Shown here: in pieces, positions 1-38,803 of the stretch
Layout: each line of letters begins with the position of its first letter
How positions within the stretch are numbered: the first letter of the stretch is position 1
Sequence record: PZ452614.1
Direction: 5' to 3' (one strand)
Source of the DNA: a phage
DNA: 39,092 nucleotides
Notes under the pieces: generated by a model
Told to the model about the DNA's origin: nothing
The model's database searches: none
The model's input: the letters and a program-made list of their open reading frames with translations, nothing else
Position numbers and translations under genes: made by a program

Positions 1-962
1 AGACGTTTGCGGTACATACCGACAGTTATATGAAACACGTCATCCTGGCTGAAAGTACCCGCGCAATGAAGCAGGCAGTGATCGACCGTGACATACTTCC
101 GGTTCTTGGCAACAAAATGATGGCTGAAATTACCACATCGATGGTTCGTGATTTGTGTGACAGGATTGTCGAACGCGGTGGTCGGGCAACAGCAGTGCAG
201 GCCAGGGAGATCATCAGCAGCGTATACCGTCACGCCAATGACCGTGGTCATGGTTTGTTTAATCCTGCGGCTGACATTAAACCTTCGTCTATCGCCATAT
301 TTAAACCACGAGAGCGAACACTGACACCAGAAGAAATTGGCCTGTTCTTCCGCACGCTGGATGCCATTGGTGCTATGGGCACTATGAAAATGGCTTTAAA
401 GCTGGTGCTTATCACTATGGTTCGTAAAGGCGAATTCACCAACGCAACGTGGGATGAAATAGATTTTAAAAAATGGACATGGACAATTCCTTCAGACCGC
501 ATGAAGGGAAGCCGGGCGCACGTTATTTACCTGCCTAAACAGGCTCAGGATATATTGGTCGGGTTGCAGATGTGCGCTGGTGGAAGTGAATATCTGGTTC
601 CTGGTCGTTACAATTTCCGGAAGCCATTATCTAATGCCGCGCTGAACTCTCTGATCGACAGAACGGTGAAAATAATAAATGAAGATGGTGAGCATATTCA
701 GGGCTTCACCGTACACGATATGCGCCGTACAGCCAGTACGTTGTTGCATGAGGCTGGTTATCCTTCAGACTGGATTGAAAAGGCTCTGGCACATGAGCAG
801 AAAGGTGTGCGCGCCGTATATAACAAAGCGGAATACGCCAGACAGCGCGCCTACATGTTGCAGCAGTGGTCCGATATGATTGATTCCTGGATTAACGGGG
901 AGCATACGGATCTGATTCCGTTCTCCCCGTCGAAGTTTGAGAAGTGGATGGCGGGGGAATAA
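1..962 (+). CDS. int: Tyrosine integrase, P4/IntA-type, C-terminal part; continues in frame from 38804..39092 across the window junction
   Basis: No stop between position 3 and the ATG at 30; C-terminal catalytic region resembles P4-family integrases (…HDMRRTASTLLHEAGY…ALAHE…VRAVYNKAEY); frame matches the truncated ORF at the window end. Confidence 0.9.
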   Translation, partial: TFAVHTDSYMKHVILAESTRAMKQAVIDRDILPVLGNKMMAEITTSMVRDLCDRIVERGGRATAVQAREIISSVYRHANDRGHGLFNPAADIKPSSIAIFKPRERTLTPEEIGLFFRTLDAIGAMGTMKMALKLVLITMVRKGEFTNATWDEIDFKKWTWTIPSDRMKGSRAHVIYLPKQAQDILVGLQMCAGGSEYLVPGRYNFRKPLSNAALNSLIDRTVKIINEDGEHIQGFTVHDMRRTASTLLHEAGYPSDWIEKALAHEQKGVRAVYNKAEYARQRAYMLQQWSDMIDSWINGEHTDLIPFSPSKFEKWMAGE

Positions 963-2506: not shown

Positions 2507-4267
2507 TTACATAGATGTTTCGTTTAATTCTTCCCGACGAACGCTGTAAACGTCGGTGGCTTTTGCCAGCAGTTCGTCATCATCTGAAAGTTTTTGTGCA
2601 ATGTATTTGTAAGCCTTATCCAGTTCGGAGACAGTGCTGTAATTCATCGCTGCGCTGGTAAAGGCCATCAGCATTTCTTCTGGATCACGGCTATCCGCTT
2701 TACGAGTTTGCTCATCAGGCTTTTTCACTGGTTTAGCGTTGATCAGACTGTTCATTCCCGCAGCAGTGGTCGTTTGCGGAGTAATGTCTCGCTCAACGCG
2801 CGGTGCCGTTTCCTGTAATTCGTCTGGTGTGTAGACGCCCATGATTACGTCAGGACAGTGCAAGCGAGACCAGCGTTTTGTCGCAAGGTATGCGAGTTGT
2901 TGTTTCGGATCACTGGCCCAAAGTGTGGAGTTTCTTACCTGTGCTTGAGACAGCATTAACTCAAGCACTCGAGGTTGATCCTCGCCCTTCATGGTTGCCC
3001 ATACGCGAACACCGCAGCCTTCTTCGTCTTTTAGAGTCCAGCCTGGTGCGATATATGGATTGCCGTTTTTGGATGTTTTCTCAACAAACTTACCGATCAC
3101 GCGTTCCCACGGCCCGAACCACTCGTAGTTGATGCGATCTTTTGTTGGCGACATCGTTGAGATAACTGCGTTTACTAATTGGGCTTCATAACCTAGCGTG
3201 CCGTTCACAACATGGGTTTTCTGAGCCACGGCAAACGGGTTCATTCCCCACTGCGCAGCCTGCATTGCCACGGCCATGCAATCAGCTGGTTTCCCGGCGA
3301 GGTGCGCCGGTACCGTTACGCGGCTTTGCGCCATTACCTCGGCGAATTTCATCAGTTGGTTCAAGCCGTCTGGGCTGAAAATAGTTGCAGCAGTTCCAGC
3401 GATTGCTGTGTCTACTGGTGCGTTGATGTTTGCGATGTCGTTGCTCATATGTACATATCCTGTTTTGCGTGCCCACTCAGGGCGTTTAATGATTTCCACA
3501 CCGCCCCATTCATCATTTATGCGGCATTCGTGATAGGTATTCAGATCCCGGCGGAACAGAGCGTGCCCGGCATCGACATCCGGCGCATCCAGCTCGAACA
3601 CGCGTACCGGATACCGACCACAATCAATGCTTTCGCTCACGGCAAGAAAGAAAAAACCATGCGGCTGACCAGTAACCCTCATTGCGCCTTCGCGGTACAT
3701 TGCGTCCTGCACGTGGTAGCGGAATTCCTCGATGTGGCGTGCAAAACGGTCCATATCTGCAACCTTTTTCACGTCGACGATCACGTTGTGCTCGTTCAGC
3801 CATTTGTCTGGACGAATGCGGCACAACTCACCAGTATCTTCATCATTCCAGTACATTGATGCTTCGCAGAAACCAGGTGCTTCCAGCATCCAGCGTGCCG
3901 CCGGGTGAGCCATTGCGCTATCACGCATCAGCTCCAGTTTCCGCCACTGCTCGGCATCAAGTACCGTAATCCCCATATCCGCTACATCACGAAGAAATGC
4001 TTCTTCGTCAGCTTTACCTTGTTTCGTCCGACGATCGAACTTCGGTGAAACAATGAAGCGTTTGTCGAATTCTCCAGGCTCCAGAAGCAGACAGTGCAAT
4101 GCGGTTCCAATATCCAGTGCAGACTTTTTCTCTTCGTCTTCTGGTGCTGCCTGGACCCATTTAAGAAGCGACGGATTCTTGGCAACCATGTCCAGTTGCG
4201 ACTTACTCACGCCGTCACCGGCGTGGTAGTCTTCGTTGCTGATGTCGAAATAAATTCCCGGTTTCAT
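2507..4267 (-). CDS. PD-(D/E)XK exonuclease (RecE/Exo VIII-like N-terminal domain) fused to a C-terminal domain of uncertain identity, possibly RecT-like annealase
   Basis: N-terminus DISNEDYHAGDGVSKSQL… typical of exodeoxyribonuclease VIII PDDEXK-like proteins; continuous 586-aa ORF. Confidence 0.7.
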   Translation of the reverse strand: MKPGIYFDISNEDYHAGDGVSKSQLDMVAKNPSLLKWVQAAPEDEEKKSALDIGTALHCLLLEPGEFDKRFIVSPKFDRRTKQGKADEEAFLRDVADMGITVLDAEQWRKLELMRDSAMAHPAARWMLEAPGFCEASMYWNDEDTGELCRIRPDKWLNEHNVIVDVKKVADMDRFARHIEEFRYHVQDAMYREGAMRVTGQPHGFFFLAVSESIDCGRYPVRVFELDAPDVDAGHALFRRDLNTYHECRINDEWGGVEIIKRPEWARKTGYVHMSNDIANINAPVDTAIAGTAATIFSPDGLNQLMKFAEVMAQSRVTVPAHLAGKPADCMAVAMQAAQWGMNPFAVAQKTHVVNGTLGYEAQLVNAVISTMSPTKDRINYEWFGPWERVIGKFVEKTSKNGNPYIAPGWTLKDEEGCGVRVWATMKGEDQPRVLELMLSQAQVRNSTLWASDPKQQLAYLATKRWSRLHCPDVIMGVYTPDELQETAPRVERDITPQTTTAAGMNSLINAKPVKKPDEQTRKADSRDPEEMLMAFTSAAMNYSTVSELDKAYKYIAQKLSDDDELLAKATDVYSVRREELNETSM

Positions 4268-4563
4268 GCCGCGTCCCTCTGTCCATCAAGCTGATCCGCC
4301 AGATCCCAGCGGGCGATAATTGCCATTGCCTCTCGCCGATAGGCATCCATCAGTTCTTCGAACTCAGGGCTGTCTTTAGCAGCCTCCAGTACTTCCTGAC
4401 GAACGCCTTTGCCTGTTACAACGTCAAAAGTTGAGGACAGTTGATGAAGTCGGATGCTCTCAATCAGTTCAACTTGTCGGTCATATAGCTGTTCTGACAG
4501 GCGGTAGTCCTTGTCGAATGCCAGCATGATTTTTTGAAGATTTTTCTGCTGATTAACGTTCAT
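4264..4563 (-). CDS. Hypothetical protein (about 99 aa), first sizeable gene of the leftward early operon
   Basis: ATG at 4563 preceded by GGAGGG; stop overlaps exonuclease start (ATGA). Confidence 0.5.
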   Translation of the reverse strand: MNVNQQKNLQKIMLAFDKDYRLSEQLYDRQVELIESIRLHQLSSTFDVVTGKGVRQEVLEAAKDSPEFEELMDAYRREAMAIIARWDLADQLDGQRDAA

Positions 4564-4565
4564 TA

Positions 4566-4718
4566 TCAGCCCTCCCATATCTCGTTATCGTTGGCTACAT
4601 CGCGAGCTTCTTTGCTGACGAAAGCCCACTTAATGCCTTCCTGTAAGGTGCGGAACTTCCAGCTCATGAATCCGCATGCAGTAACGCAGTACCAACCGTT
4701 GATGATTTTCCACTGCAT
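4566..4718 (-). CDS. Possible 50-aa leader ORF immediately downstream of the leftward promoter
   Basis: ATG at 4718 to stop at 4566; weak ribosome-binding site; not in the supplied track (under 60 aa). Confidence 0.25.
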   Translation of the reverse strand: MQWKIINGWYCVTACGFMSWKFRTLQEGIKWAFVSKEARDVANDNEIWEG

Positions 4719-4737
4719 AACTTGTTACCTCGGTCTG

Positions 4738-4814
4738 TTACCGTTGAGGTAATAATTATGCGTATCTGGTTTGATGTCAATAGATATGAGTTAAAAAAAT
4801 TACCCGTTAGGTAA
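4738..4814 (-). promoter_or_regulatory. Leftward early promoter (PL-like) with two flanking TTACC-N5-GGTAA operators
   Basis: Minus-strand -35 TTGACA (4780..4775), 16-bp spacer, -10 TAATTA (4758..4753); operators at 4738..4752 and 4800..4814. Confidence 0.55.
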
Positions 4815-4826
4815 TCGAATAGGCAA

Positions 4827-4850
4827 TAAAAAAGCCGCCATAAGGCGGCT
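4827..4850 (-). terminator. Rho-independent terminator downstream of the repressor gene
   Basis: Stem agccgcc/ggcggct with loop ataa; U-run on the minus strand (plus A-run 4827..4833). Confidence 0.6.
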
Positions 4851-4871
4851 TACTTACTGAAAAATATGATT

Positions 4872-5456
4872 TTATTGTTTGTTTTTTTCGTTCTGGTTGA
4901 TGACAAATTCAATGTAACTTTCGATCTTTGCCTTCTCTGTTTCAGGTAACAATGCGTAGCGCGAGCGGTCATAGTTGATAGTCGCGGGGTCGTGCGGGTG
5001 AATCAGTAATTCATATCCGTGACGCCCAAATGCGGATGCAACATTCTCCAGGGTGGAAATGGAAACGCTGACCTCATTGTTTAACAGGCGGCTGATTGTT
5101 ACCTGGGCGACGCCGGATGCGCGGTGAAGTTTTCCCTGCGTTGAAAGGTCGCGGCTTTCGCTCATCCAGCGTTCCAGGTTGTGAGCCGCCAGTTGACCAA
5201 TGTCGCTTGGTCCGACAGGCTGAAAACCTTCCTGAGAAAGCGAGCGATCGATATCAAGCCAGTTACGGGGTTTATTGGCGGCAGCTTCAATTTTTCGCGC
5301 AACCTGGTCGCCGATAACCTTCTTGCCAAGAGCCCAGCGGTTTACCAGATTTGCCTGAGTTCCAAGTTTTTCTGCCATCCGCGTCTGAACACCATTGAAT
5401 TCACGGTCGATCAAGTCGTTGAGATTTTGCCTGCGGACGTCCTGGATACTTTTCAT
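4872..5456 (-). CDS. CI-like phage repressor with two HTH regions and no S24 peptidase domain
   Basis: 194 aa; HTH-like segments near residues 25-45 and 115-135; divergent from a Cro-like gene; located between the leftward and rightward operator clusters. Confidence 0.75.
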   Translation of the reverse strand: MKSIQDVRRQNLNDLIDREFNGVQTRMAEKLGTQANLVNRWALGKKVIGDQVARKIEAAANKPRNWLDIDRSLSQEGFQPVGPSDIGQLAAHNLERWMSESRDLSTQGKLHRASGVAQVTISRLLNNEVSVSISTLENVASAFGRHGYELLIHPHDPATINYDRSRYALLPETEKAKIESYIEFVINQNEKNKQ

Positions 5457-5511
5457 TTTCTGGAAAATCGCCTCATATATGAATCAGTAGATGATTCAAT
5501 TTAAAGCAATA

Positions 5512-5578
5512 TTACCCAACAGGTAAATGCACCCCATAGGTAACTATCCTTGATTTTTGTTACCTTATGGGTGAATAT
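5512..5578. promoter_or_regulatory. Rightward operator cluster (three TTACC-N5-GGTAA-type sites) overlapping a candidate PR
   Basis: Sites 5512..5526 (perfect), 5529..5543 (GCACC half), 5560..5574 (GGTGA half); -35 TTGATT 5550..5555 and -10 GAATAT 5573..5578. Confidence 0.6.
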
Positions 5579-5610
5579 TTATTATCTGAAATAAATATCA
5601 GGCAATAGCT

Positions 5611-5841
5611 ATGAGCGATAACGGACATTTCGATTTCAAAAAGCACTGGCTTGCACTTACTCCGGATGAGCGTGAAGCCTTCGCACAGGAAGCCGGAACG
5701 ACGAGTCACTATATCCAGACTCACTTAACAGGTAAGCGCAAAATGCCAGGTAAGGTATTGATGAATGGGCTTTTTAAAGCCTGTAAAACAAGACAATGGC
5801 TGCGCTCAAAAGCAGAACTGGCATACTTCTTCTACTCATGA
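5611..5841 (+). CDS. Cro-like small HTH regulator
   Basis: 76 aa; HTH …EAFAQEAGTTSHYIQTHLTGKRKMP…; divergent from the repressor. Confidence 0.6.
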   Translation: MSDNGHFDFKKHWLALTPDEREAFAQEAGTTSHYIQTHLTGKRKMPGKVLMNGLFKACKTRQWLRSKAELAYFFYS

Positions 5842-5862
5842 TATCCAGCCACAACCCTCTGT

Positions 5863-5886
5863 AGACCGCCATCCGGCGGTCTTTTC
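5863..5886 (+). terminator. Weak terminator-like hairpin after the Cro-like gene
   Basis: Stem agaccgcc/ggcggtct, loop atcc, short T-run. Confidence 0.4.
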
Positions 5887-5991
5887 ATATCTATTCGTAC
5901 CTCAAAGGTAATAAAAAACCAAATATGGTTGATCTTTTTTTTGTGTCAGCACAAAATAACCGTAATCCCAATACTAATAACAGGGCTTACC

Positions 5992-6192
5992 ATGGAAATC
6001 ATTACACGTATTGATGCCGCAAAGCGCGGACTTAAACGCTATTACACCGGAAAACAATGTAAGCACGGACATGACAGTGAACGCTGGGTTTACAACGGAC
6101 ACTGTGTTGAGTGCACCATGGAATCAAACCGTCGCATCAGGGCAGAGATTAAGCAGATCATGATTAATTCCTCCCCACAACACTCAAGCTGA
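5992..6192 (+). CDS. Small putative zinc-binding protein in the cII-equivalent position
   Basis: ATG at 5992 (MEIITR…); C-K-H-G-H … C-V-E-C motif; preceded by operator-like site 5897..5911. Confidence 0.45.
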   Translation: MEIITRIDAAKRGLKRYYTGKQCKHGHDSERWVYNGHCVECTMESNRRIRAEIKQIMINSSPQHSS

Positions 6193-6207
6193 TAGCGGAG
6201 ATTAATC

Positions 6208-7023
6208 ATGAGCAGACATGCAACAGATTGGGCTTGGGAGACAGATCCAGGCAGCTCATCATTAAAGCTCATACTGCTCTCGATGGCTGACAGAGCCGAT
6301 GAATATAACCTCTGCTACCCCAGCATAGAACGCCTCGTTAAAGACACTTGCCTGAATAAAAAAACCGTGCAGGCCGGGCTTATATCGCTCATGAAAATGG
6401 GGCTTATTTCAGATACCGGAGAGAGAAAGGGAGCGACAAAAAGAGTGCGGGTTTTCTCTCTTAATATAACCAAAAACGGGAACATTAAAGGCAACCGAGA
6501 GGGGGTCAATGAACCCGAAAACGGTAATGTTACCGAAAACGGGAATATACCCAAAAACGGGATGTTGAATGATCCCAAAAACGGGATGTTGAATGATCCC
6601 AAAAACGGGATCCAGAACCAGTCATATAACCAGTCATTTAACCAAGAGAGGGAGAGCAGGACAAAAAACGGGGATTCTGTGCATCATGACCCCGGCGCAA
6701 ACAACGCCGTGATGAATAACTTTGTTCCTCTTGGTGGGCCAGGGCAATTAGGCAAATTTGTCATGCATGAACAATGGCAGCCATCAGATGACTTTCTTCG
6801 GAAAAGCTCATTGCAGGGGATCTACCTGGACAGTCTGCCAACGGCACAGGAACTTGCAGAGTTCAGAATTTACTGGATGGCTGAGGGTAAGGCATACCAT
6901 CAGGCACAGTGGGAGCAGAAGCTGGCAAGGCGGCTGCAGATTAGCAGACAGAAGCAATCAACATTACCTGATAACAACGTTCCGCACTGGAACAGCCCTG
7001 AAGCATGGGAGGATTTCTTGTGA
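6208..7023 (+). CDS. Replication initiator (lambda O-like role) with N-terminal HTH; ori iterons embedded in the coding sequence
   Basis: N-terminal …LKLILLSMADRADEYNLCYPSIERLVKDTCLNKKTVQAGLISLMKMGLI…; internal tandem repeats; translationally coupled to the P-like gene. Confidence 0.7.
   Translation: MSRHATDWAWETDPGSSSLKLILLSMADRADEYNLCYPSIERLVKDTCLNKKTVQAGLISLMKMGLISDTGERKGATKRVRVFSLNITKNGNIKGNREGVNEPENGNVTENGNIPKNGMLNDPKNGMLNDPKNGIQNQSYNQSFNQERESRTKNGDSVHHDPGANNAVMNNFVPLGGPGQLGKFVMHEQWQPSDDFLRKSSLQGIYLDSLPTAQELAEFRIYWMAEGKAYHQAQWEQKLARRLQISRQKQSTLPDNNVPHWNSPEAWEDFL
6514..6610. repeat. Candidate origin of replication: five iterons CC(C/G)AAAA(A)CGG(G/T)
   Basis: Repeats start at 6514, 6533, 6550, 6574, 6598; the last three on a 24-bp period with identical cccaaaaacgggatgttgaatgat units. 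Confidence 0.65.
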
Positions 7024-7805
7024 ACAACGTTTTTACCGCGATACAAAACCGTGACGGAGAAGCCCTTTCTCGCATGTCAGGTTATGAGCATCAGTACACC
7101 AACAATGACAACGTGGTGAACATGTCAGCAGAGAGGCTTGTTGATGCCCTTTTCAAACAGCTGAAACAACTGTTTCCGGCGGCAGTGGTAACCAACCTGA
7201 AGACGCCAGAGCAGGAAGTTGCTGCAAAACAGCAGTGGATTGCTGCGTTTGCCGAAGGGGGGATCCGAACCCGTGAACAGGTTTCTGCTGGTATGCGCCA
7301 CGCCCGCGCCAGTGAGTCTCCGTTCTGGCCGTCGCCAGGGCAATTCATCAAGTGGTGTAAAGACAGCAAGATGGTTCTTGGCGTCACCATTGACGATGTG
7401 ATGGCGGAGTTTCACCGGTACAGCAAGGAAAAAAGTTTATATCCTGGTGGTCCCGAAAGATTCCCGTGGCGGCATCCGGTTATGTACTGGGTCGTATGTG
7501 ATACCCGCCGTGCAATGTATCAGCGCCAGCTTAGCGAGATTGAGGTTGAGAAACACGCGCGCAGGCTGCTCGATGATTGGGCGAAAAAGGTGGCTTCCGG
7601 ACAGCAGATACCCGATCCGGTGATCAGCATACAGGCAAAGCCAGAACCCATGAGTACGCCTCCGGACACAGGGAGAGATGTTTACCATCCACCAGGGCGA
7701 AGTTTCGGGTGCATGCCTAACGCCGCCACCCTGGGGGGAATAACACCGGCGCAGTGGCTGATGGAGGAATACAGGCGAGGAAAGGCAGCAGGATTTATCA
7801 AGTAA
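7005..7805 (+). CDS. Lambda P-like replication protein (DnaB helicase loader)
   Basis: …RQWIAAFAEGGIRTREQVSAGMRHARASESPFWPSPGQFIKWCKDS… closely parallels lambda P as recalled; alternative GTG start at 7020 has a better Shine-Dalgarno (GGGAGGA). Confidence 0.85.
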   Translation: MGGFLVNNVFTAIQNRDGEALSRMSGYEHQYTNNDNVVNMSAERLVDALFKQLKQLFPAAVVTNLKTPEQEVAAKQQWIAAFAEGGIRTREQVSAGMRHARASESPFWPSPGQFIKWCKDSKMVLGVTIDDVMAEFHRYSKEKSLYPGGPERFPWRHPVMYWVVCDTRRAMYQRQLSEIEVEKHARRLLDDWAKKVASGQQIPDPVISIQAKPEPMSTPPDTGRDVYHPPGRSFGCMPNAATLGGITPAQWLMEEYRRGKAAGFIK

Positions 7806-7842
7806 TACCAGCGCGATAGCGCATTTTTTTACGCCTCAATAG

Positions 7843-7919
7843 TTACCTAATGGGTAACAAAATATTCTTAGATCTATTGATTTCGTGTCTTATGTGGTTT
7901 TTAATTACCTTAGAGGTAA
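7843..7919 (+). promoter_or_regulatory. Regulatory region with two perfect TTACC-N5-GGTAA sites and an ATGTGGTT motif
   Basis: Sites 7843..7857 and 7905..7919; ATGTGGTT at 7892..7899; ATG of the next gene at 7923. Confidence 0.5.
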
Positions 7920-7922
7920 ATC

Positions 7923-8267
7923 ATGAGAAAACAGATACAGGCTCTTGGTCGACTCAAAACAGGCCAGATGAACAAAACAGAATCTGCGTATTGCCAGCAC
8001 CTTGAGCAGCGTAAACGTGCAGGGGAAGTCGCCTGGTATCGGTTCGAGGGTATCAAGCTGCGGCTGGCTGACAACACGTTTTATACGCCCGATTTCGCTG
8101 TGATGCTCGCCACCGGAGAGATGGAACTGCACGAAGTGAAAGGTTTCTGGACCGACGACGCCAGGGTGAAAACCAAAGTCGCCGCAGATCAGTATCCGTT
8201 CCGAATCATCGGGGTAACGGTTAAACCAAAGAAAGCAGGTGGTGGCTGGAATATCGAAGAGTTCTGA
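7923..8267 (+). CDS. DUF1064-like phage protein (putative nuclease family)
   Basis: 114 aa; …FYTPDFAVML…ELHEVKGFWTDDARVKTKV… pattern recalled for DUF1064. Confidence 0.5.
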   Translation: MRKQIQALGRLKTGQMNKTESAYCQHLEQRKRAGEVAWYRFEGIKLRLADNTFYTPDFAVMLATGEMELHEVKGFWTDDARVKTKVAADQYPFRIIGVTVKPKKAGGGWNIEEF

Positions 8268-8328
8268 ATCGACGATCTTTTTAGTTATCAATGTAATCAA
8301 TAAGTTATGTGGATAAGCGAGGGTAAAG

Positions 8329-19625: not shown

Positions 19626-19961
19626 ATGTCAGGTGAGAAACCAAGATACCGCGTTCTGCGCCTCTCTCATATCCATAACACTCTGTGGCCGGAGGGGGCA
19701 GAAATCGAATACGAAGGTGAGCCTGGTAGCGCACTGGAACCTGTTAACGATGCAGCCAGACAGGCAAAAGCAAAGGTAGCAGGAAAGGTGTCAATGGCAG
19801 CAACCAGTACCAAAATCATCAACGATGTGTCAGATGATGGTGAGCTGGATAAGCTCCGTGAAGAGTACGAATTGCTCTTTAACGAGAAGCCACACCATAA
19901 CGCCAAAGCCGAAACGCTCCGCGAGAAGATCGCAGATAAGCGTAAAGAACTTGGCGTGTAA
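19626..19961 (+). CDS. Hypothetical protein (111 aa)
   Basis: ATG at 19626 after AGGTGA. Confidence 0.5.
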   Translation: MSGEKPRYRVLRLSHIHNTLWPEGAEIEYEGEPGSALEPVNDAARQAKAKVAGKVSMAATSTKIINDVSDDGELDKLREEYELLFNEKPHHNAKAETLREKIADKRKELGV

Positions 19962-31522: not shown

Positions 31523-32107
31523 TCAGCTCCGCCGCCGCGCCTGATACATCATGCCCGTCGTCCTGTTCATCAGCAGTGAGTGCTCCGTCAGGCCGAGAAC
31601 ACCAGACGGCGAATGAATCAGGCTACGGTAGCCGGGCTTCAGTGGGGCACTGTAGGTTTTGTTCTCTATCTTCATCGCCTGCATTACTGCTGACGCCGTG
31701 GCGTTGGCTACCTGGTCGGCAACCATCTTTATGCGTTCTTCCTGCGGGAGCGAGTTTTTAATGTAACTTCCGGTGCGGCGGATCTGAGGAAGAACCTCAC
31801 CTGTAACCCATTTACGAAAGCGGTAGGGGATAGTGCCTGGTGTCACCGCATCGCGGCAGCGGAGGATCAGTGTGTAGAGTCCTGACTCGGAGATGATGAT
31901 CGATTCTTGCTCACCGCCAGGGGTGTCGGTTGAAGCGACACCCTTCTCATCATCATCAAGTTTTCGAACAGCATCTCGATGGTTTGCTATGCCTATAGCC
32001 CGACAAACATCTGAAGCGATAAACCATGGCTCACCATTAATGACGATTACCCGTATATCGGCTTGGGATTCGAAAGAAAAAATGGACGTGCTTTTTGTAG
32101 CTGTCAT
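31523..32107 (-). CDS. Antirepressor with Bro-N domain
   Basis: …FSFESQADIRVIVINGEPWFIASDVCRAIGIANHRDAVRKLDDDEKGV… matches the Bro-N pattern; Shine-Dalgarno AAGGTAA. Confidence 0.8.
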   Translation of the reverse strand: MTATKSTSIFSFESQADIRVIVINGEPWFIASDVCRAIGIANHRDAVRKLDDDEKGVASTDTPGGEQESIIISESGLYTLILRCRDAVTPGTIPYRFRKWVTGEVLPQIRRTGSYIKNSLPQEERIKMVADQVANATASAVMQAMKIENKTYSAPLKPGYRSLIHSPSGVLGLTEHSLLMNRTTGMMYQARRRS

Positions 32108-32263
32108 AGTGGTTACCTTTTAGTCTGGTTAATCACCACTACCTACGCCAATCGGTTGGTGGTGAACTGTGCAGGGTTGGCGTAACCGGCTAAAAGGACC
32201 CGGCGCACCTTTCGGTGCCCCCACACAGCCCACCATAATACGAATGTGACCGTGCTATACGCA

Positions 32264-32284
32264 TAAAAAAACCGCTTGCGCGGT
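32264..32284 (-). terminator. Terminator-like hairpin inside the antirepressor operon spacer
   Basis: Stem accgc/gcggt with loop ttgc, followed on the minus strand by a 7-nt U-run. Confidence 0.45.
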
Positions 32285-32360
32285 GAATGCGCCTTTTAGT
32301 AACCCGGGACGCCAATCCCGGCACTGGATTTTGCCAGTGCCCGATTACTATGGCACAATA

Positions 32361-32401
32361 GGAGTGCTTATATTTACCTTTGCGGTAAATATAAGCACTC
32401 C
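32361..32401. repeat. 41-bp perfect palindrome (18-bp arms, 5-nt centre) with a TTACC-N5-GGTAA core
   Basis: GGAGTGCTTATATTTACC TTTGC GGTAAATATAAGCACTCC read directly. Confidence 0.9.
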
Positions 32402-32419
32402 ACTTGGTAATTGCAAACC

Positions 32420-32677
32420 TTATCTGGTTTGTTTTCGTAATTGTTCGGCACAATAGTCGAGATGTGTTTGCAGATCCCGCATGGACATCTGTGAGCTGGT
32501 GACGTAGTTAATCAGTGCAGTCAGTTCGGCAAGTGGGCCATCGACATTAAATCCATCCTTATCGAGATCCCGGAGTAATTTCATCAAGTGCGATCCCTCC
32601 ACCAGTGACCTGACGCCTCCCGGCGTGTGAATCCTTTCGGTAAATCCGTCTTCCAGTGGATAGTGATACTGCGGCAT
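32420..32677 (-). CDS. Hypothetical protein (85 aa), first gene of the LexA-box-controlled operon
   Basis: ATG at 32677 after GGAGAAG; LexA-like box 22 to 37 nt upstream. Confidence 0.55.
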   Translation of the reverse strand: MPQYHYPLEDGFTERIHTPGGVRSLVEGSHLMKLLRDLDKDGFNVDGPLAELTALINYVTSSQMSMRDLQTHLDYCAEQLRKQTR

Positions 32678-32696: not shown

Positions 32697-32716
32697 AACT
32701 GTATAAATACACAGTA
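32697..32716. promoter_or_regulatory. Candidate LexA (SOS) box
   Basis: aaCTGTataaatacACAGta: CTGT-N8-ACAG, 17/20 match to the consensus TACTGTATATATATACAGTA. Confidence 0.7.
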
Positions 32717-32753: not shown

Positions 32754-32820
32754 TCACCTGAAAGGTAATATCTGTTCGTATTTATGTGTTATCTATCCAT
32801 ATGTGGTTTTTCAGGTAATA
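32754..32820. promoter_or_regulatory. Divergent regulatory region: operator-like site and ATGTGGTT / GGTAATA motif before the tailspike
   Basis: TCACC-TGAAA-GGTAA 32754..32768; ATGTGGTT 32801..32808; GGTAATA 32814..32820. Confidence 0.5.
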
Positions 32821-36568: not shown

Positions 36569-36639
36569 TCACCTATCGGGTAATTTCGATAGGATCAATT
36601 CTAAGTTATTTTAACCATATATGGTTTATTGTGTATAAT
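36569..36639. promoter_or_regulatory. Divergent control region: operator-like site near the acyltransferase start and an extended -10 promoter for the lysis genes
   Basis: TCACC-TATCG-GGTAA 36569..36583; ATATGGTT 36621..36628; TGTGTATAAT 36630..36639. Confidence 0.5.
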
Positions 36640-38486: not shown

Positions 38487-38659
38487 CATGGCATTTTTCA
38501 TGGTACTGATTTCCGGTGACGGTATATAAAACGGTACTAAAAAAATGAAGTTTTGGAAAAATGTTATCACTCAATTGGTTATGGTTGCCGTAAATAATTG
38601 AGTGGGAATGATTAACAGCTAACTCATAGCAACTCATTCCTATTCAGATACTAATTTAA

Positions 38660-38690: not shown

Positions 38691-38746
38691 ATGTATTCAT
38701 TTCTATTCACTCTACACCATATTTTTCGGCGGTACAGGTGACGGTA

Positions 38747-38761
38747 TTACCTTAAAGGTAT
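38747..38761. promoter_or_regulatory. Operator-like site upstream of the integrase gene
   Basis: TTACC-TTAAA-GGTAT (one mismatch), 43 bp before the integrase start. Confidence 0.4.
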
Positions 38762-38803
38762 ACTCTCATACCGTCATGAAAATGGTTTTTATACGGGTGA
38801 ATT

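What the first reader, a model, noticed from the sequence alone, without database searches (positions are those of the whole stretch)
4738..5574. Genome-wide regulon of a 10-bp palindromic motif TTACC-N5-GGTAA at 13 or more intergenic sites
Seven perfect copies (4738..4752, 4800..4814, 5512..5526, 7843..7857, 7905..7919, 15129..15143, 32374..32388) and six one-mismatch or weaker copies (5529..5543, 5560..5574, 5897..5911, 32754..32768, 36569..36583, 38747..38761) were found by eye. All lie in intergenic or promoter regions; less than 0.1 perfect copies are expected by chance in 39 kb. They cluster on both sides of the CI-like repressor gene in a lambda-like OL/OR layout, but also sit in front of the replication, DUF1064, portal, antirepressor/tailspike, lysis and integrase units. 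That pattern suggests either a repressor with a dispersed regulon (P1 C1-like logic) or a shared site for another factor. Coding regions were not scanned exhaustively.
Basis: partly seen in the sequence, partly recalled or inferred. Interest (0 to 1): 0.78.

Follow-up and report, generated by a model that had tools for sequence, protein, structure and literature searches.

The report
Phage repressor operators spread genome-wide
The repeated TTACC-N5-GGTAA palindrome is real and is most likely the binding site of this phiV10-like phage's immunity repressor in front of nearly every operon, but the same dispersed sites are already labelled as repressor sites in the database record of its sister phage epsilon15, so it is a sound but largely known feature.

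Summary
The window is a circular permutation of E. coli O157:H7 phage phiV10 (99.7% identity; genus Uetakevirus). There are 8 perfect TTACC-N5-GGTAA copies (0.01 expected) and 6 with one mismatch. All 14 lie in the 6.7% of the genome that is non-coding, and none lies in coding sequence.

The same palindrome sits at orthologous positions in epsilon15, SPC32H, Tyrion and BUCT711. Half-sites are 98% conserved, against 52% for the central 5 bp. The 4872..5456 protein is an SPC32H-type Rep (PDB 5D50), not a lambda CI. The window also carries Rep's partner Ant (88% identical) behind a LexA box.

The epsilon15 GenBank record already labels seven such sites, dispersed in the same way, as repressor-binding. 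The sites are not annotated in phiV10.

Corrections:
- Two sites in front of terS were missed.
- 5529 has two mismatches.
- The integrase site overlaps integrase arm repeats and is doubtful.

Additional observations:
- Operator pairs are spaced exactly 62 bp and bracket promoters.
- One operator guards a P1 immI-like isrK-C4-antirepressor module.
- A second conserved box, CATATGTGGTT, marks the middle and late promoters.

The parts
4872..5456 (-). Rep, the immunity repressor (194 aa; SPC32H/epsilon15 type, with an N-terminal HTH DNA-binding domain, a middle dimerisation domain and a C-terminal tetramerisation/Ant-binding domain)
   Evidence: Full-length match to PDB 5D50 'Repressor', E = 4e-42. 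Pfam finds HTH_3 and other HTH families and no peptidase domain. The protein is 100% identical to phiV10 gp40 and to ZX5 ORF21. Overexpression of ZX5 ORF21 abolished lytic growth (PMC9782041).
4738..4752 (.). Operator OL1, perfect. It abuts the -10 of the leftward early promoter PL and is centred at about +1.
   Evidence: PL is TTGACA-17-AATTAT on the minus strand, 4780..4752. Orthologous sites occur in 4 relatives.
4800..4814 (.). Operator OL2, perfect, 62 bp upstream of OL1 (about -62 of PL). It lies just after the rep terminator.
   Evidence: The spacing is 62 bp in four genomes and 63 bp in the fifth.
5512..5526 (.). Operator OR-a, perfect, on the rep-proximal side of the rep/gp41 divergent region
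5529..5543 (.). Degenerate operator OR-b (GCACC...GGTAA, 2 mismatches), 17 bp from OR-a. The site is perfect in epsilon15, SPC32H and BUCT711.
5560..5574 (.). Operator OR-c (1 mismatch), inside the -35/-10 spacer of the rightward early promoter PR
   Evidence: The promoter-like site is 5557..5585, or, by eye, TTGATT(5551)-17-GAATAT(5579).
5611..5841 (+). gp41, a small HTH protein in the Cro position and the first gene of the PR operon. It is followed by a terminator at 5863..5882.
   Evidence: phrog_35 'transcriptional repressor', 5.6e-13; terminator.
5897..5911 (.). Operator (1 mismatch) just after the gp41 terminator and in front of gp42 and the replication genes
   Evidence: Orthologues occur in Tyrion and BUCT711.
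7843..7857 (.). Operator, perfect, after the terminator that follows the P gene. It is the upstream member of a 62-bp pair.
   Evidence: The spacing is 62 bp in all five genomes.
7905..7919 (.). Operator, perfect. It abuts an AT-rich -10-like hexamer and covers the Shine-Dalgarno sequence of the DUF1064 gene (start codon at 7923).
11964..11978 (.). It lies between terminator 11927..11944 and the true terS start.
   Evidence: The orthologous epsilon15 site 12..27 is annotated 'repressor'.
11982..11996 (.). Operator (1 mismatch), 18 bp from the previous one, ending 2 nt before the terS ATG (11999)
15129..15143 (.). Operator, perfect, in front of the gp06-portal-structural operon
   Evidence: The orthologous epsilon15 site 2931..2947 is annotated 'repressor'.
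32374..32388 (.). Operator, perfect, at about +1 of a leftward promoter (TTGCAA-17-TATATT, 32416..32388). It sits at the centre of a 41-bp perfect palindrome.
32155..32340 (-). isrK-like sRNA (32265..32340) and C4 antisense RNA (32155..32240), downstream of the 32374 operator and upstream of the Bro-N antirepressor-like gene
   Evidence: Rfam isrK 75.9 bits and C4 77.7 bits, both above gathering score. Tyrion has the same module behind its orthologous operator.
31523..32107 (-). Bro-N / Ant-like protein gp23, the last gene of the immI-like module
   Evidence: Pfam Bro-N 1.6e-21. PHROG anti-repressor families match, and the C-terminus matches the small-Ant family phrog_450.
32420..32677 (-). 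Small antirepressor Ant, homologous to SPC32H Ant
   Evidence: 88% identity to SPC32H_020 'ant', E = 4e-56.
32699..32714 (.). LexA box CTGTATAAATACACAG, 22 bp upstream of the ant start codon
   Evidence: The box is conserved in all five genomes.
32754..32768 (.). Operator (1 mismatch, TCACC) in the ant/tailspike divergent region
   Evidence: The orthologous epsilon15 site 19895..19911 is annotated 'repressor'.
36569..36583 (.). Operator (1 mismatch, TCACC) in the oac/lysis divergent region, about 70 bp upstream of the predicted lysis-operon transcription start
   Evidence: The promoter-like site is TTAACC-17-TATAAT, 36611..36639. Orthologues are listed.
38747..38761 (.). Doubtful site (GGTAT). 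It overlaps inverted integrase arm-type repeats GTGACGGTAT (38738..38747 on +, 38768..38777 on -) next to attP.
   Evidence: The same mismatch occurs in all five genomes. The epsilon15 record labels the overlapping repeat as integrase-binding, not repressor-binding.
15185..15195 (+). Second conserved box CATATGTGGTT. Other copies are at 5917..5930, 7889..7899, 32798..32808 and 36613..36626. It lies at the -35/spacer position of the middle and late promoters, at a fixed distance from the operator.

Best explanation
TTACC-N5-GGTAA (extended consensus A-TTACC-wwWww-GGTAA-T) is the operator of Rep, the SPC32H/epsilon15-type immunity repressor encoded at 4872..5456.

In the prophage, Rep occupies operators on both sides of its own gene, shutting the leftward (PL) and rightward (PR) early promoters. 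It also occupies one or two operators at the head of every other transcription unit. Each of these units begins just after an intrinsic terminator or in a divergent promoter region:
- gp42 and the replication genes;
- DUF1064 through gp55;
- terS and terL;
- gp06, portal and the structural genes;
- the isrK-C4-Bro antirepressor module;
- tailspike (shared region with ant);
- lysis (shared region with oac).

Each operon is therefore silenced directly rather than through a cascade.

At three promoters (PL, the DUF1064 promoter and the isrK-C4-bro promoter) the operator abuts the -10 and covers the start site, which would occlude RNA polymerase. At PL and at the DUF1064 promoter a second operator lies exactly 62 bp upstream. 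Because Rep is a tetramer with two pairs of DNA-binding domains, it probably clamps both operators and bends the promoter DNA between them.

Induction does not involve Rep cleavage. SOS inactivation of LexA frees the ant promoter, Ant takes the Rep tetramer apart, and all operons are released together.

What is shown here: the sites, their statistics, their positions relative to genes, terminators and promoter-like hexamers, their conservation, and the homologies.
What is inferred: that Rep binds them (by homology, by the epsilon15 annotation and by site geometry), the tetramer bridging, and the mode of repression at sites far upstream of the late promoters.
For: Statistics and placement:
- 8 perfect sites against 0.01 expected.
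- 14 of 14 sites with up to 1 mismatch lie in the 6.7% of the genome that is non-coding.
- It is the top de novo gapped palindrome in the window and in all four relatives.

Identity of the protein:
- Rep aligns over its full length with SPC32H Rep, PDB 5D50.
- The N-terminal DNA-binding domain is the best-conserved part, including the stretch NLVNRW.
- Ant is 88% identical to SPC32H Ant, and a LexA box precedes it.

Prior annotation: the epsilon15 record labels seven (A)TTACC-N5-GGTAAT sites as repressor-binding. They lie before terS, gp3, the tail fibre and RuvC, and on the OL side of the repressor gene.

Conservation:
- Sites are orthologous in epsilon15, SPC32H, Tyrion and BUCT711.
- Half-sites are 98% identical, against 52% for the spacer and 57% for the flanks.

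Geometry:
- The -10 hexamer abuts the operator at PL and at the isrK-C4-bro promoter.
- An operator lies in the PR spacer.
- Nine of ten operator pairs are exactly 62 bp apart, although the DNA between them is only 57-85% identical across genomes.

The half-site travels with the DNA-binding domain: Pseudomonas phage PseuP_224 has a CI-type repressor with a homologous N-terminal domain, and its four TTACC-N4-GGTAA sites all flank that repressor gene.

Experiments in the literature:
- Overexpression of the identical Rep in phage ZX5 abolished free phage and cut holin and endolysin transcripts by more than 99.9% (PMC9782041).
- SPC32H Rep binds palindromic DNA as a tetramer whose two domain pairs lie about 100 A apart (PMC9638917; PMC9986798).
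Against: - No binding experiment exists for phiV10 Rep on any of these sites. The papers that characterise the SPC32H and epsilon15 operators could not be opened, so the basis of the epsilon15 'repressor' features is unknown and may be prediction only.
- At the gp06, tailspike and lysis units the operator centre is roughly 60-75 bp upstream of the best -10-like element. That position does not occlude polymerase, so repression there needs looping, an activator block or a promoter I have not recognised.
- No convincing sigma-70 promoter was found in front of terS.
- The operator in the oac/lysis region lies 40 bp from oac, a lysogenic-conversion gene that should stay on in the lysogen.
- A Cro-like protein (gp41) could use the same sites.
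Confidence: 0.85

Rival explanations
1. The palindrome is bound mainly by another phage factor rather than, or as well as, Rep. One candidate is the Cro-like gp41 acting as a genome-wide lytic-phase regulator. Another is a middle/late activator. Under this reading the dispersed copies are not part of the immunity regulon.
For: - gp41 is a small HTH protein in the Cro position, and Cro-type proteins classically share operators with the repressor.
- Several dispersed operators lie too far upstream of the -10-like elements for simple occlusion.
- A second conserved box shows that at least one more factor or promoter code acts at these promoters.
Against: - The dispersed sites have the same half-site, the same gap and the same flanking A/T as the sites that overlap PL and PR beside rep.
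- The half-site follows the Rep DNA-binding domain into an unrelated phage, PseuP_224. That genome's table lists a small divergent hypothetical ORF beside its repressor, but I did not test whether it is related to gp41.
- The epsilon15 record assigns the sites to the repressor.
- Shared use by Cro would add to the Rep model, not replace it.
Confidence: 0.08
2. The copies are module-boundary or recombination sequences, or RNA hairpins (terminators or processing sites), rather than protein operators. They recur at operon junctions because mosaic phages exchange modules there.
For: - All sites sit at module junctions, and many come directly after terminators.
- The accessory isrK-C4-bro module is present only in genomes that also have the extra operator.
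- The 32374 copy is embedded in a 41-bp palindrome that folds strongly as RNA (-33 kcal/mol, z = -6.8).
Against: - A 5-bp stem with a 5-nt loop is too weak to act as a hairpin.
- The extended palindrome is unique to 32374 and is absent at the orthologous Tyrion and BUCT711 sites.
- Conservation is confined to the two 5-bp half-sites with a free spacer, which is the signature of a dimeric DNA-binding protein.
- The sites overlap promoter elements at PL, PR and the isrK-C4-bro promoter.
Confidence: 0.04
3. The pattern is chance or a compositional artefact of AT-rich intergenic DNA.
For: Intergenic DNA is AT-rich, and GGTAAT resembles -10-like sequence.
Against: - The expected number of perfect copies is 0.01-0.1, against 8 observed.
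- The positions are orthologous in five genomes from four host genera.
Confidence: 0.01

Closest known systems
Epsilon15 / SPC32H (genus Uetakevirus) Rep-operator-Ant immunity system
   Same: - The Rep is homologous (42% overall, and the N-terminal DNA-binding domain is much better conserved).
- Ant is homologous (88%), and a LexA box sits at ant.
- The operator consensus is identical, and the dispersed sites are orthologous. Seven of them are annotated as repressor-binding in the epsilon15 record.
   Different: - The sites are not annotated in either phiV10 RefSeq or GenBank tables that I saw.
- phiV10 and Tyrion have an extra operator guarding an isrK-C4-Bro module that epsilon15 and SPC32H lack.
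- The middle OR site is degenerate in phiV10.
- phiV10 has two OL operators where epsilon15 has three.
Phage P1 C1 repressor with dispersed operators, including Op51 in front of the immI operon c4-icd-ant (from my own knowledge)
   Same: - One immunity repressor directly controls many separate operons through operators scattered over the genome.
- One of these operators sits at the promoter of a module made of a C4 antisense RNA followed by an antirepressor gene (Rfam C4; promoter and operator).
   Different: - Rep is a different protein family.
- P1 operators are asymmetric 17-bp sites bound by a monomer, whereas these are symmetric 15-bp palindromes.
- P1 late structural operons are controlled through the activator Lpa, whereas here operators sit directly in front of the packaging, structural, tailspike and lysis units.
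Mycobacteriophage L5/Bxb1 gp71 'stoperators' (from my own knowledge)
   Same: Many copies of the immunity repressor's site lie outside the immunity region and silence the lytic operons of the prophage.
   Different: - Stoperators are asymmetric and act in one orientation.
- They number about 30.
- They act inside transcription units by blocking elongation.
- The sites here are palindromic, fewer (about 14), and sit at operon heads next to promoter-like elements or just after terminators.
Lambda CI with the OL/OR operators
   Same: Operators flank the repressor gene, overlap divergent early promoters, and probably cooperate at a distance.
   Different: - Rep has no LexA-like autocleavage domain.
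- Induction is through an antirepressor.
- Lambda has no operators at its late, lysis or packaging operons.
pLS20 Rco, a tetrameric repressor with a p53-like 'TetDloop' domain that loops DNA (PMC9986798)
   Same: That paper states that SPC32H Rep has the same kind of C-terminal tetramerisation fold and an N-terminal DNA-binding domain homologous in sequence. It places two domain pairs about 100 A apart, which fits binding of two operators at once.
   Different: - Rep has an extra middle dimerisation domain.
- Looping by Rep has not been shown.
- The operator pairs here are only 62 bp apart.

Membership tests
Uetakevirus (epsilon15/SPC32H-type) Rep-operator-Ant immunity system | Rep homologue with an N-terminal DNA-binding domain, a middle dimerisation domain and a C-terminal tetramerisation/Ant-binding domain | tested here: met
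   phmmer against PDB 5D50_A gives E = 4e-42 over residues 1-190 of 194.
Uetakevirus (epsilon15/SPC32H-type) Rep-operator-Ant immunity system | Repressor lacks a LexA/CI-type autocleavage (Peptidase_S24) domain | tested here: met
   Pfam finds only HTH families: HTH_3, HTH_26, LacI-type HTH and YdaS.
Uetakevirus (epsilon15/SPC32H-type) Rep-operator-Ant immunity system | Small antirepressor Ant encoded divergently from the tailspike gene | tested here: met
   Window 32420..32677 (-) is 88% identical to SPC32H_020 'ant'.
Uetakevirus (epsilon15/SPC32H-type) Rep-operator-Ant immunity system | LexA box at the ant promoter, giving SOS control of induction | tested here: met
   CTGTATAAATACACAG at 32699..32714, 22 bp upstream of ant. 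It is conserved in five genomes. That it overlaps the promoter is taken from my recollection of Kim & Ryu 2013, which I could not read.
Uetakevirus (epsilon15/SPC32H-type) Rep-operator-Ant immunity system | Operator (A)TTACC-N5-GGTAA(T) beside rep and at dispersed operon heads, as annotated in epsilon15 | tested here: met
Uetakevirus (epsilon15/SPC32H-type) Rep-operator-Ant immunity system | Physical binding of Rep to the sites, and release by Ant | not testable with these tools
   This needs EMSA, footprinting or ChIP. Only indirect support exists from ZX5 Rep overexpression (PMC9782041).
P1 C1-type dispersed-operator immunity | Asymmetric 17-bp operator recognised by a monomeric C1-family repressor | tested here: not met
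   The site is a symmetric palindrome. The repressor is an SPC32H-type HTH tetramer family member. The logic is analogous to P1, but this is not a member.
P1 C1-type dispersed-operator immunity | Repressor-controlled promoter in front of a C4 antisense RNA plus antirepressor (immI-like) module | tested here: met
   Rfam C4 and isrK hits lie between operator 32374 and the Bro-N gene. The -10 of a promoter-like site abuts the operator. Tyrion has the same arrangement.
Mycobacteriophage L5-type stoperators | Asymmetric, orientation-dependent sites inside transcription units that block elongation | tested here: not met
   The sites are palindromic and lie at operon heads, either after terminators or in divergent promoter regions.
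Lambda CI-type immunity | RecA-stimulated autocleavage domain, with operators confined to OL and OR | tested here: not met
   There is no S24 domain, and nine or more sites lie outside the immunity region.

The most novel reading that the evidence does not exclude
Beyond the known existence of the sites, Uetakevirus immunity may work by a fixed promoter-clamp geometry. One Rep tetramer would hold an operator at +1 and a second exactly 62 bp upstream, an arrangement invariant in 9 of 10 pairs across four host genera. Every operon, including packaging, virion, tailspike and lysis, would be individually locked. The middle and late promoters would lack a -35 element and instead carry a conserved CATATGTGGTT box, at a fixed distance from the operator, that is read by an unidentified phage activator. 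Rep would then repress the late operons by interfering with that activator rather than with RNA polymerase.
Probability: 0.3. Interest if true: 0.5.

Novelty: already known. Interest (0 to 1): 0.3.

Why it matters
This assigns a function to nearly every intergenic region of phiV10, which is used as an E. coli O157:H7 reporter and typing phage. It also shows how the prophage is kept silent: each operon is repressed directly, and induction goes through a LexA-controlled antirepressor.

That is practically useful for engineering or de-repressing these phages. To make a virulent derivative, one would have to defeat operators at many promoters or remove Rep.

As biology it mostly re-derives what the epsilon15 record and the SPC32H work already imply. 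The open parts are how a site at -60 to -75 represses the late promoters, whether the 62-bp pairs are bridged by one tetramer, and what reads the CATATGTGGTT box.

Tried and rejected
- I tried to read the primary papers: Kropinski 2007 on epsilon15 (PubMed id, PMC2698709, DOI), Kim & Ryu 2013 (PMC3807360) and Kim et al. 2016 (PMC4983836). None is held. Full-text searches for the motif or for operator descriptions in this genus found nothing relevant. 'Already known' therefore rests on the epsilon15 record's features and on my recollection that the epsilon15 paper reported an ATTACC...GGTAAT repeat.
- I counted 38747 as an operator at first, then downgraded it. It overlaps integrase arm repeats, and GTGACGGTAT occurs five times perfectly around attP.
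- The two-mismatch hits (22, of which 21 are coding) were rejected as background.
- I looked for a standard sigma-70 promoter at terS and at oac and found no convincing one (and by eye).
- I compared the CATATGTGGTT box by eye with the IHF consensus and with the sigma-54, sigma-32, sigma-28 and sigma-E consensus sequences. None fits.
- I tried to name the factor that reads the box. gp55 has no Pfam family and only a generic PHROG label. Its homologues occur in N15, Yersinia and Vibrio phages, which does not settle anything, so I did not pursue it.
- I considered the 41-bp palindrome at 32374 as a terminator for ant. It folds strongly but has no U-tract and is not conserved in relatives.
Full report
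**Identity of the window.** Megablast of 4200..8300 gives 99.7% identity over 100% of the query to Escherichia phage phiV10. This is a temperate podovirus of E. coli O157:H7 in the genus Uetakevirus, the epsilon15-like phages. The window is a circular permutation of that genome, and the integrase ORF runs across the window ends. I transferred the phiV10 gene table to window coordinates using sequence anchors.

**The observation.**
- An exact scan finds 8 perfect TTACC-N5-GGTAA copies against 0.01 expected. At up to one mismatch there are 14 against 0.46 expected.
One at 11964 was missed, as was a one-mismatch neighbour at 11982.
- Of the six 'weaker' copies, five have one mismatch and 5529 has two.
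- Non-coding DNA is 6.7% of the window. All 14 sites with up to 1 mismatch fall in it and none falls in coding sequence (P about 4e-17).
- The two terS sites are non-coding because the phiV10 terS start is over-extended. Similarity to epsilon15 TerS begins at residue 28, which is ATG 11999. A terminator hairpin (11927..11944 plus a T-run) lies inside the supposed coding extension. The upstream region aligns with the non-coding leaders of epsilon15, SPC32H and Tyrion.
- Two-mismatch matches (22, of which 21 are coding, against 10.9 +/- 3.2 expected) behave as background.
- An unbiased search over all 5-mer half-sites and gaps of 0-9 ranks TTACC/gap 5 first in the window (p = 2e-13). It also ranks first in epsilon15, Tyrion and BUCT711.

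**What the protein is.**
- The 194-aa product of 4872..5456 carries HTH domains only.
- It aligns end to end with the crystallised repressor of Salmonella phage SPC32H (PDB 5D50, E = 4e-42).
- Papers I could read describe that protein as having an N-terminal DNA-binding domain, a middle dimerisation domain and a C-terminal tetramerisation domain that also binds the antirepressor Ant. It binds palindromic DNA as a tetramer, and the two domain pairs lie about 100 A apart (PMC9638917; PMC9986798).
- The window also encodes the partner. The product of 32420..32677 (-) is 88% identical to SPC32H Ant.
- A consensus LexA box, CTGTATAAATACACAG, lies 22 bp upstream of ant and is conserved in five genomes.
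- The repressor is therefore not CI-like in mechanism. It has no autocleavage domain, and induction runs through LexA, Ant and Rep disassembly. This mechanism comes from the literature on SPC32H and is inferred here by homology.
- A Rep identical in sequence was overexpressed in phage ZX5. It abolished free phage and reduced holin and endolysin transcripts by more than 99.9% (PMC9782041).

**Why the palindrome is Rep's operator.**
1. The epsilon15 record carries seven 'protein_bind: repressor / lysogeny' features, and all their sequences are (A)TTACC-N5-GGTAAT. They are dispersed just as in the window: before terS, before gp3, before the tail fibre, after the replication genes, and on the OL side of the repressor gene.
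2. The motif occurs at orthologous places in epsilon15, SPC32H, Tyrion (Enterobacter) and BUCT711 (Klebsiella). In pairwise comparisons of orthologous sites the ten half-site positions are 98% identical. The central five bases are 52% identical and the 10-bp flanks 57%. The symmetrised matrix gives A-TTACC-wwWww-GGTAA-T. This pattern points to a dimeric DNA-binding module, not to an RNA hairpin.
3. The N-terminal domain of Rep is the conserved part of an otherwise 42-45% identical protein, which explains why diverged Reps share one operator.
4. Pseudomonas siphovirus PseuP_224 has a CI-type repressor with a peptidase-like C-terminal half and a homologous N-terminal domain. In that genome TTACC-N4-GGTAA occurs four times, all flanking the repressor gene. 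The half-site follows the domain, the gap changes with the oligomerisation scaffold, and the dispersal does not travel with it.

**Anatomy in the window.**
- *Leftward early promoter (PL).* TTGACA-17-AATTAT on the minus strand, 4780..4752. Operator 4738..4752 starts at the last base of the -10 and is centred on the expected start site. Operator 4800..4814 is centred 62 bp upstream, just after the rep terminator (4851..4832).
- *Rightward early promoter (PR).* Three sites lie between rep and the Cro-like gp41 (5512; 5529, degenerate; 5560). Site 5560 lies inside the PR spacer.
- *After the gp41 terminator.* Site 5897.
- *After the P-gene terminator.* A pair, 7843 and 7905, again 62 bp apart. 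The downstream member abuts an AT-rich -10-like hexamer and covers the ribosome-binding site of the DUF1064 gene.
- *After the gp55 terminator.* A pair 18 bp apart, 11964 and 11982, ending 2 nt before the terS ATG.
- *Single sites.* These precede the gp06-portal operon (15129), the tailspike gene (32754, shared with ant) and the lysis cassette (36569, shared with oac).
- *Site 32374.* It abuts the -10 of a leftward promoter-like site, TTGCAA-17-TATATT at 32416..32388.
- *The 62-bp spacing.* It is exact in 9 of 10 pairs across five genomes, with one pair at 63 bp. The 47 bp between the operators is only 57-85% identical to the window.

The overall layout is terminator, then operator(s), then the next operon. 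I read it as operon-by-operon direct repression. I infer that one tetramer bridges the two sites of a 62-bp pair.

**Weak points.**
- For gp06, tailspike and lysis, the best -10-like elements lie 50-70 bp downstream of the operator, so simple occlusion does not explain repression there.
- These promoters lack a recognisable -35. Instead they share a second conserved box, CATATGTGGTT (palindromic form AACCATATATGGTT). It has five intergenic copies in the window.
- Measured from the operator, the box lies at about +54 bp (gp06), +42 (tailspike) and +45 (lysis). At the DUF1064 promoter it lies 18 bp upstream of the downstream operator. These distances are the same in the relatives that have the box.
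- The box and the GGTAAT-containing -10 region that follows it are invariant in the gp06 and tailspike alignments. This suggests an activator-dependent promoter class, which I could not resolve.
- I found no convincing promoter for terS or for oac.

**The integrase site.** Site 38747..38761 overlaps two inverted copies of GTGACGGTAT. This repeat occurs five times perfectly around the attP core (38598..38614), and the epsilon15 record labels it as integrase-binding. All five genomes carry the same 'mismatch' (GGTAT) at this site. I treat it as integrase arm architecture rather than an operator.

**A real link to P1.** Rfam finds an isrK-like sRNA (32265..32340) and a C4 antisense RNA (32155..32240) on the minus strand. 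They lie between operator 32374 and the Bro-N/antirepressor-like gene gp23. Tyrion has the same operator-isrK-C4-antirepressor order. Epsilon15 has neither isrK/C4 nor the operator. SPC32H also lacks the operator and annotates no gene between ant and its neighbour, although I did not scan SPC32H against Rfam. This mirrors P1's C1-controlled immI operon, c4-icd-ant (my own knowledge).

**Novelty.** The motif, its assignment to the repressor and its dispersal are already recorded for the type species of the genus, and the Rep-Ant switch has been characterised structurally. From memory, the epsilon15 genome paper reported an ATTACC...GGTAAT repeat, but I could not open that paper. The phiV10 record does not annotate the sites, and the epsilon15 record lists only seven of its fifteen or so. 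What is added here:
- a complete map of the sites in this genome;
- the half-site versus spacer conservation;
- the invariant 62-bp pairs;
- the PseuP_224 comparison;
- the immI-like module under Rep control;
- the second box.

I rate the feature as real and correctly interpreted, but already known in kind, with low to moderate interest.

Noticed in passing
window 5917..5930, 7889..7899, 15185..15195, 32798..32808, 36613..36626: A second conserved box, CATATGTGGTT (palindromic form AACCATATATGGTT), sits at the -35/spacer position of the replication, DUF1064, gp06-portal, tailspike and lysis promoters. Measured from the Rep operator, it lies at about +54, +42 and +45 bp, and at the DUF1064 promoter 18 bp upstream of the downstream operator. 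The distances are the same in epsilon15, SPC32H, Tyrion and BUCT711. It may be the site of an unidentified activator.
   Followed up: partly
window 32155..32340 (-): An isrK-like sRNA and a C4 antisense RNA (Rfam, above gathering score) lie between operator 32374 and the Bro-N antirepressor-like gene. Neither is annotated in phiV10. The arrangement is a P1 immI-like or Gifsy-1 isrK-like module under a Rep-controlled promoter, and Tyrion has the same module.
   Followed up: partly
window 32361..32401: Operator 32374 sits at the centre of a 41-bp perfect palindrome, GGAGTGCTTATATTTACCTTTGCGGTAAATATAAGCACTCC. As RNA it folds at -33 kcal/mol (z = -6.8). The extension is absent at the orthologous sites of Tyrion and BUCT711. 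Its purpose is unknown.
   Followed up: partly
window 11918..11998: The annotated phiV10 terS start (TTG at 11918) runs through a terminator hairpin and both operators. Homology to epsilon15 TerS begins at ATG 11999, so the annotated start is probably 27 codons too early.
   Followed up: yes
window 14730..14806 (-): A tRNA-Arg(TCT) gene (ARAGORN and Rfam) overlaps the annotated phiV10 gp04 CDS (14549..14800, +), which is therefore probably spurious. SPC32H annotates a tRNA-Arg at the same place.
   Followed up: partly
window 38516, 38738, 38768(-), 38973, 39063, 224(-); attP core 38598..38614: Integrase arm-type repeats GTGACGGTAT surround the attP core attgagtgggaatgatt. Two inverted copies create the one-mismatch 'operator' at 38747.
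   Followed up: yes
L006 (Pseudomonas phage PseuP_224) 10906, 10932, 11768, 11807: An unrelated siphovirus has a CI-type repressor that shares the Rep N-terminal domain. It has TTACC-N4-GGTAA sites only beside its repressor gene. The half-site is the same, the gap is one base shorter, and there is no dispersal.
   Followed up: yes
window 32420..32677 versus 4872..5456: Ant is 88% identical to SPC32H Ant, while the Rep it must bind is only about 42% identical overall. The antirepressor is far more conserved than its target.
   Followed up: no
window 31523..32107 (-), residues 148-181: The C-terminus of the Bro-N protein gp23 matches the N-terminal part of the small-Ant family (phrog_450). This hints at a second, fused antirepressor.
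   Followed up: no
window 15160..15165 region: A perfect TTGACA on the minus strand (TGTCAA on the plus strand), conserved in all five genomes, lies about 20 bp right of operator 15129. It may be the -35 of a leftward promoter facing the tRNA-Arg region, but no good -10 was found.
   Followed up: no
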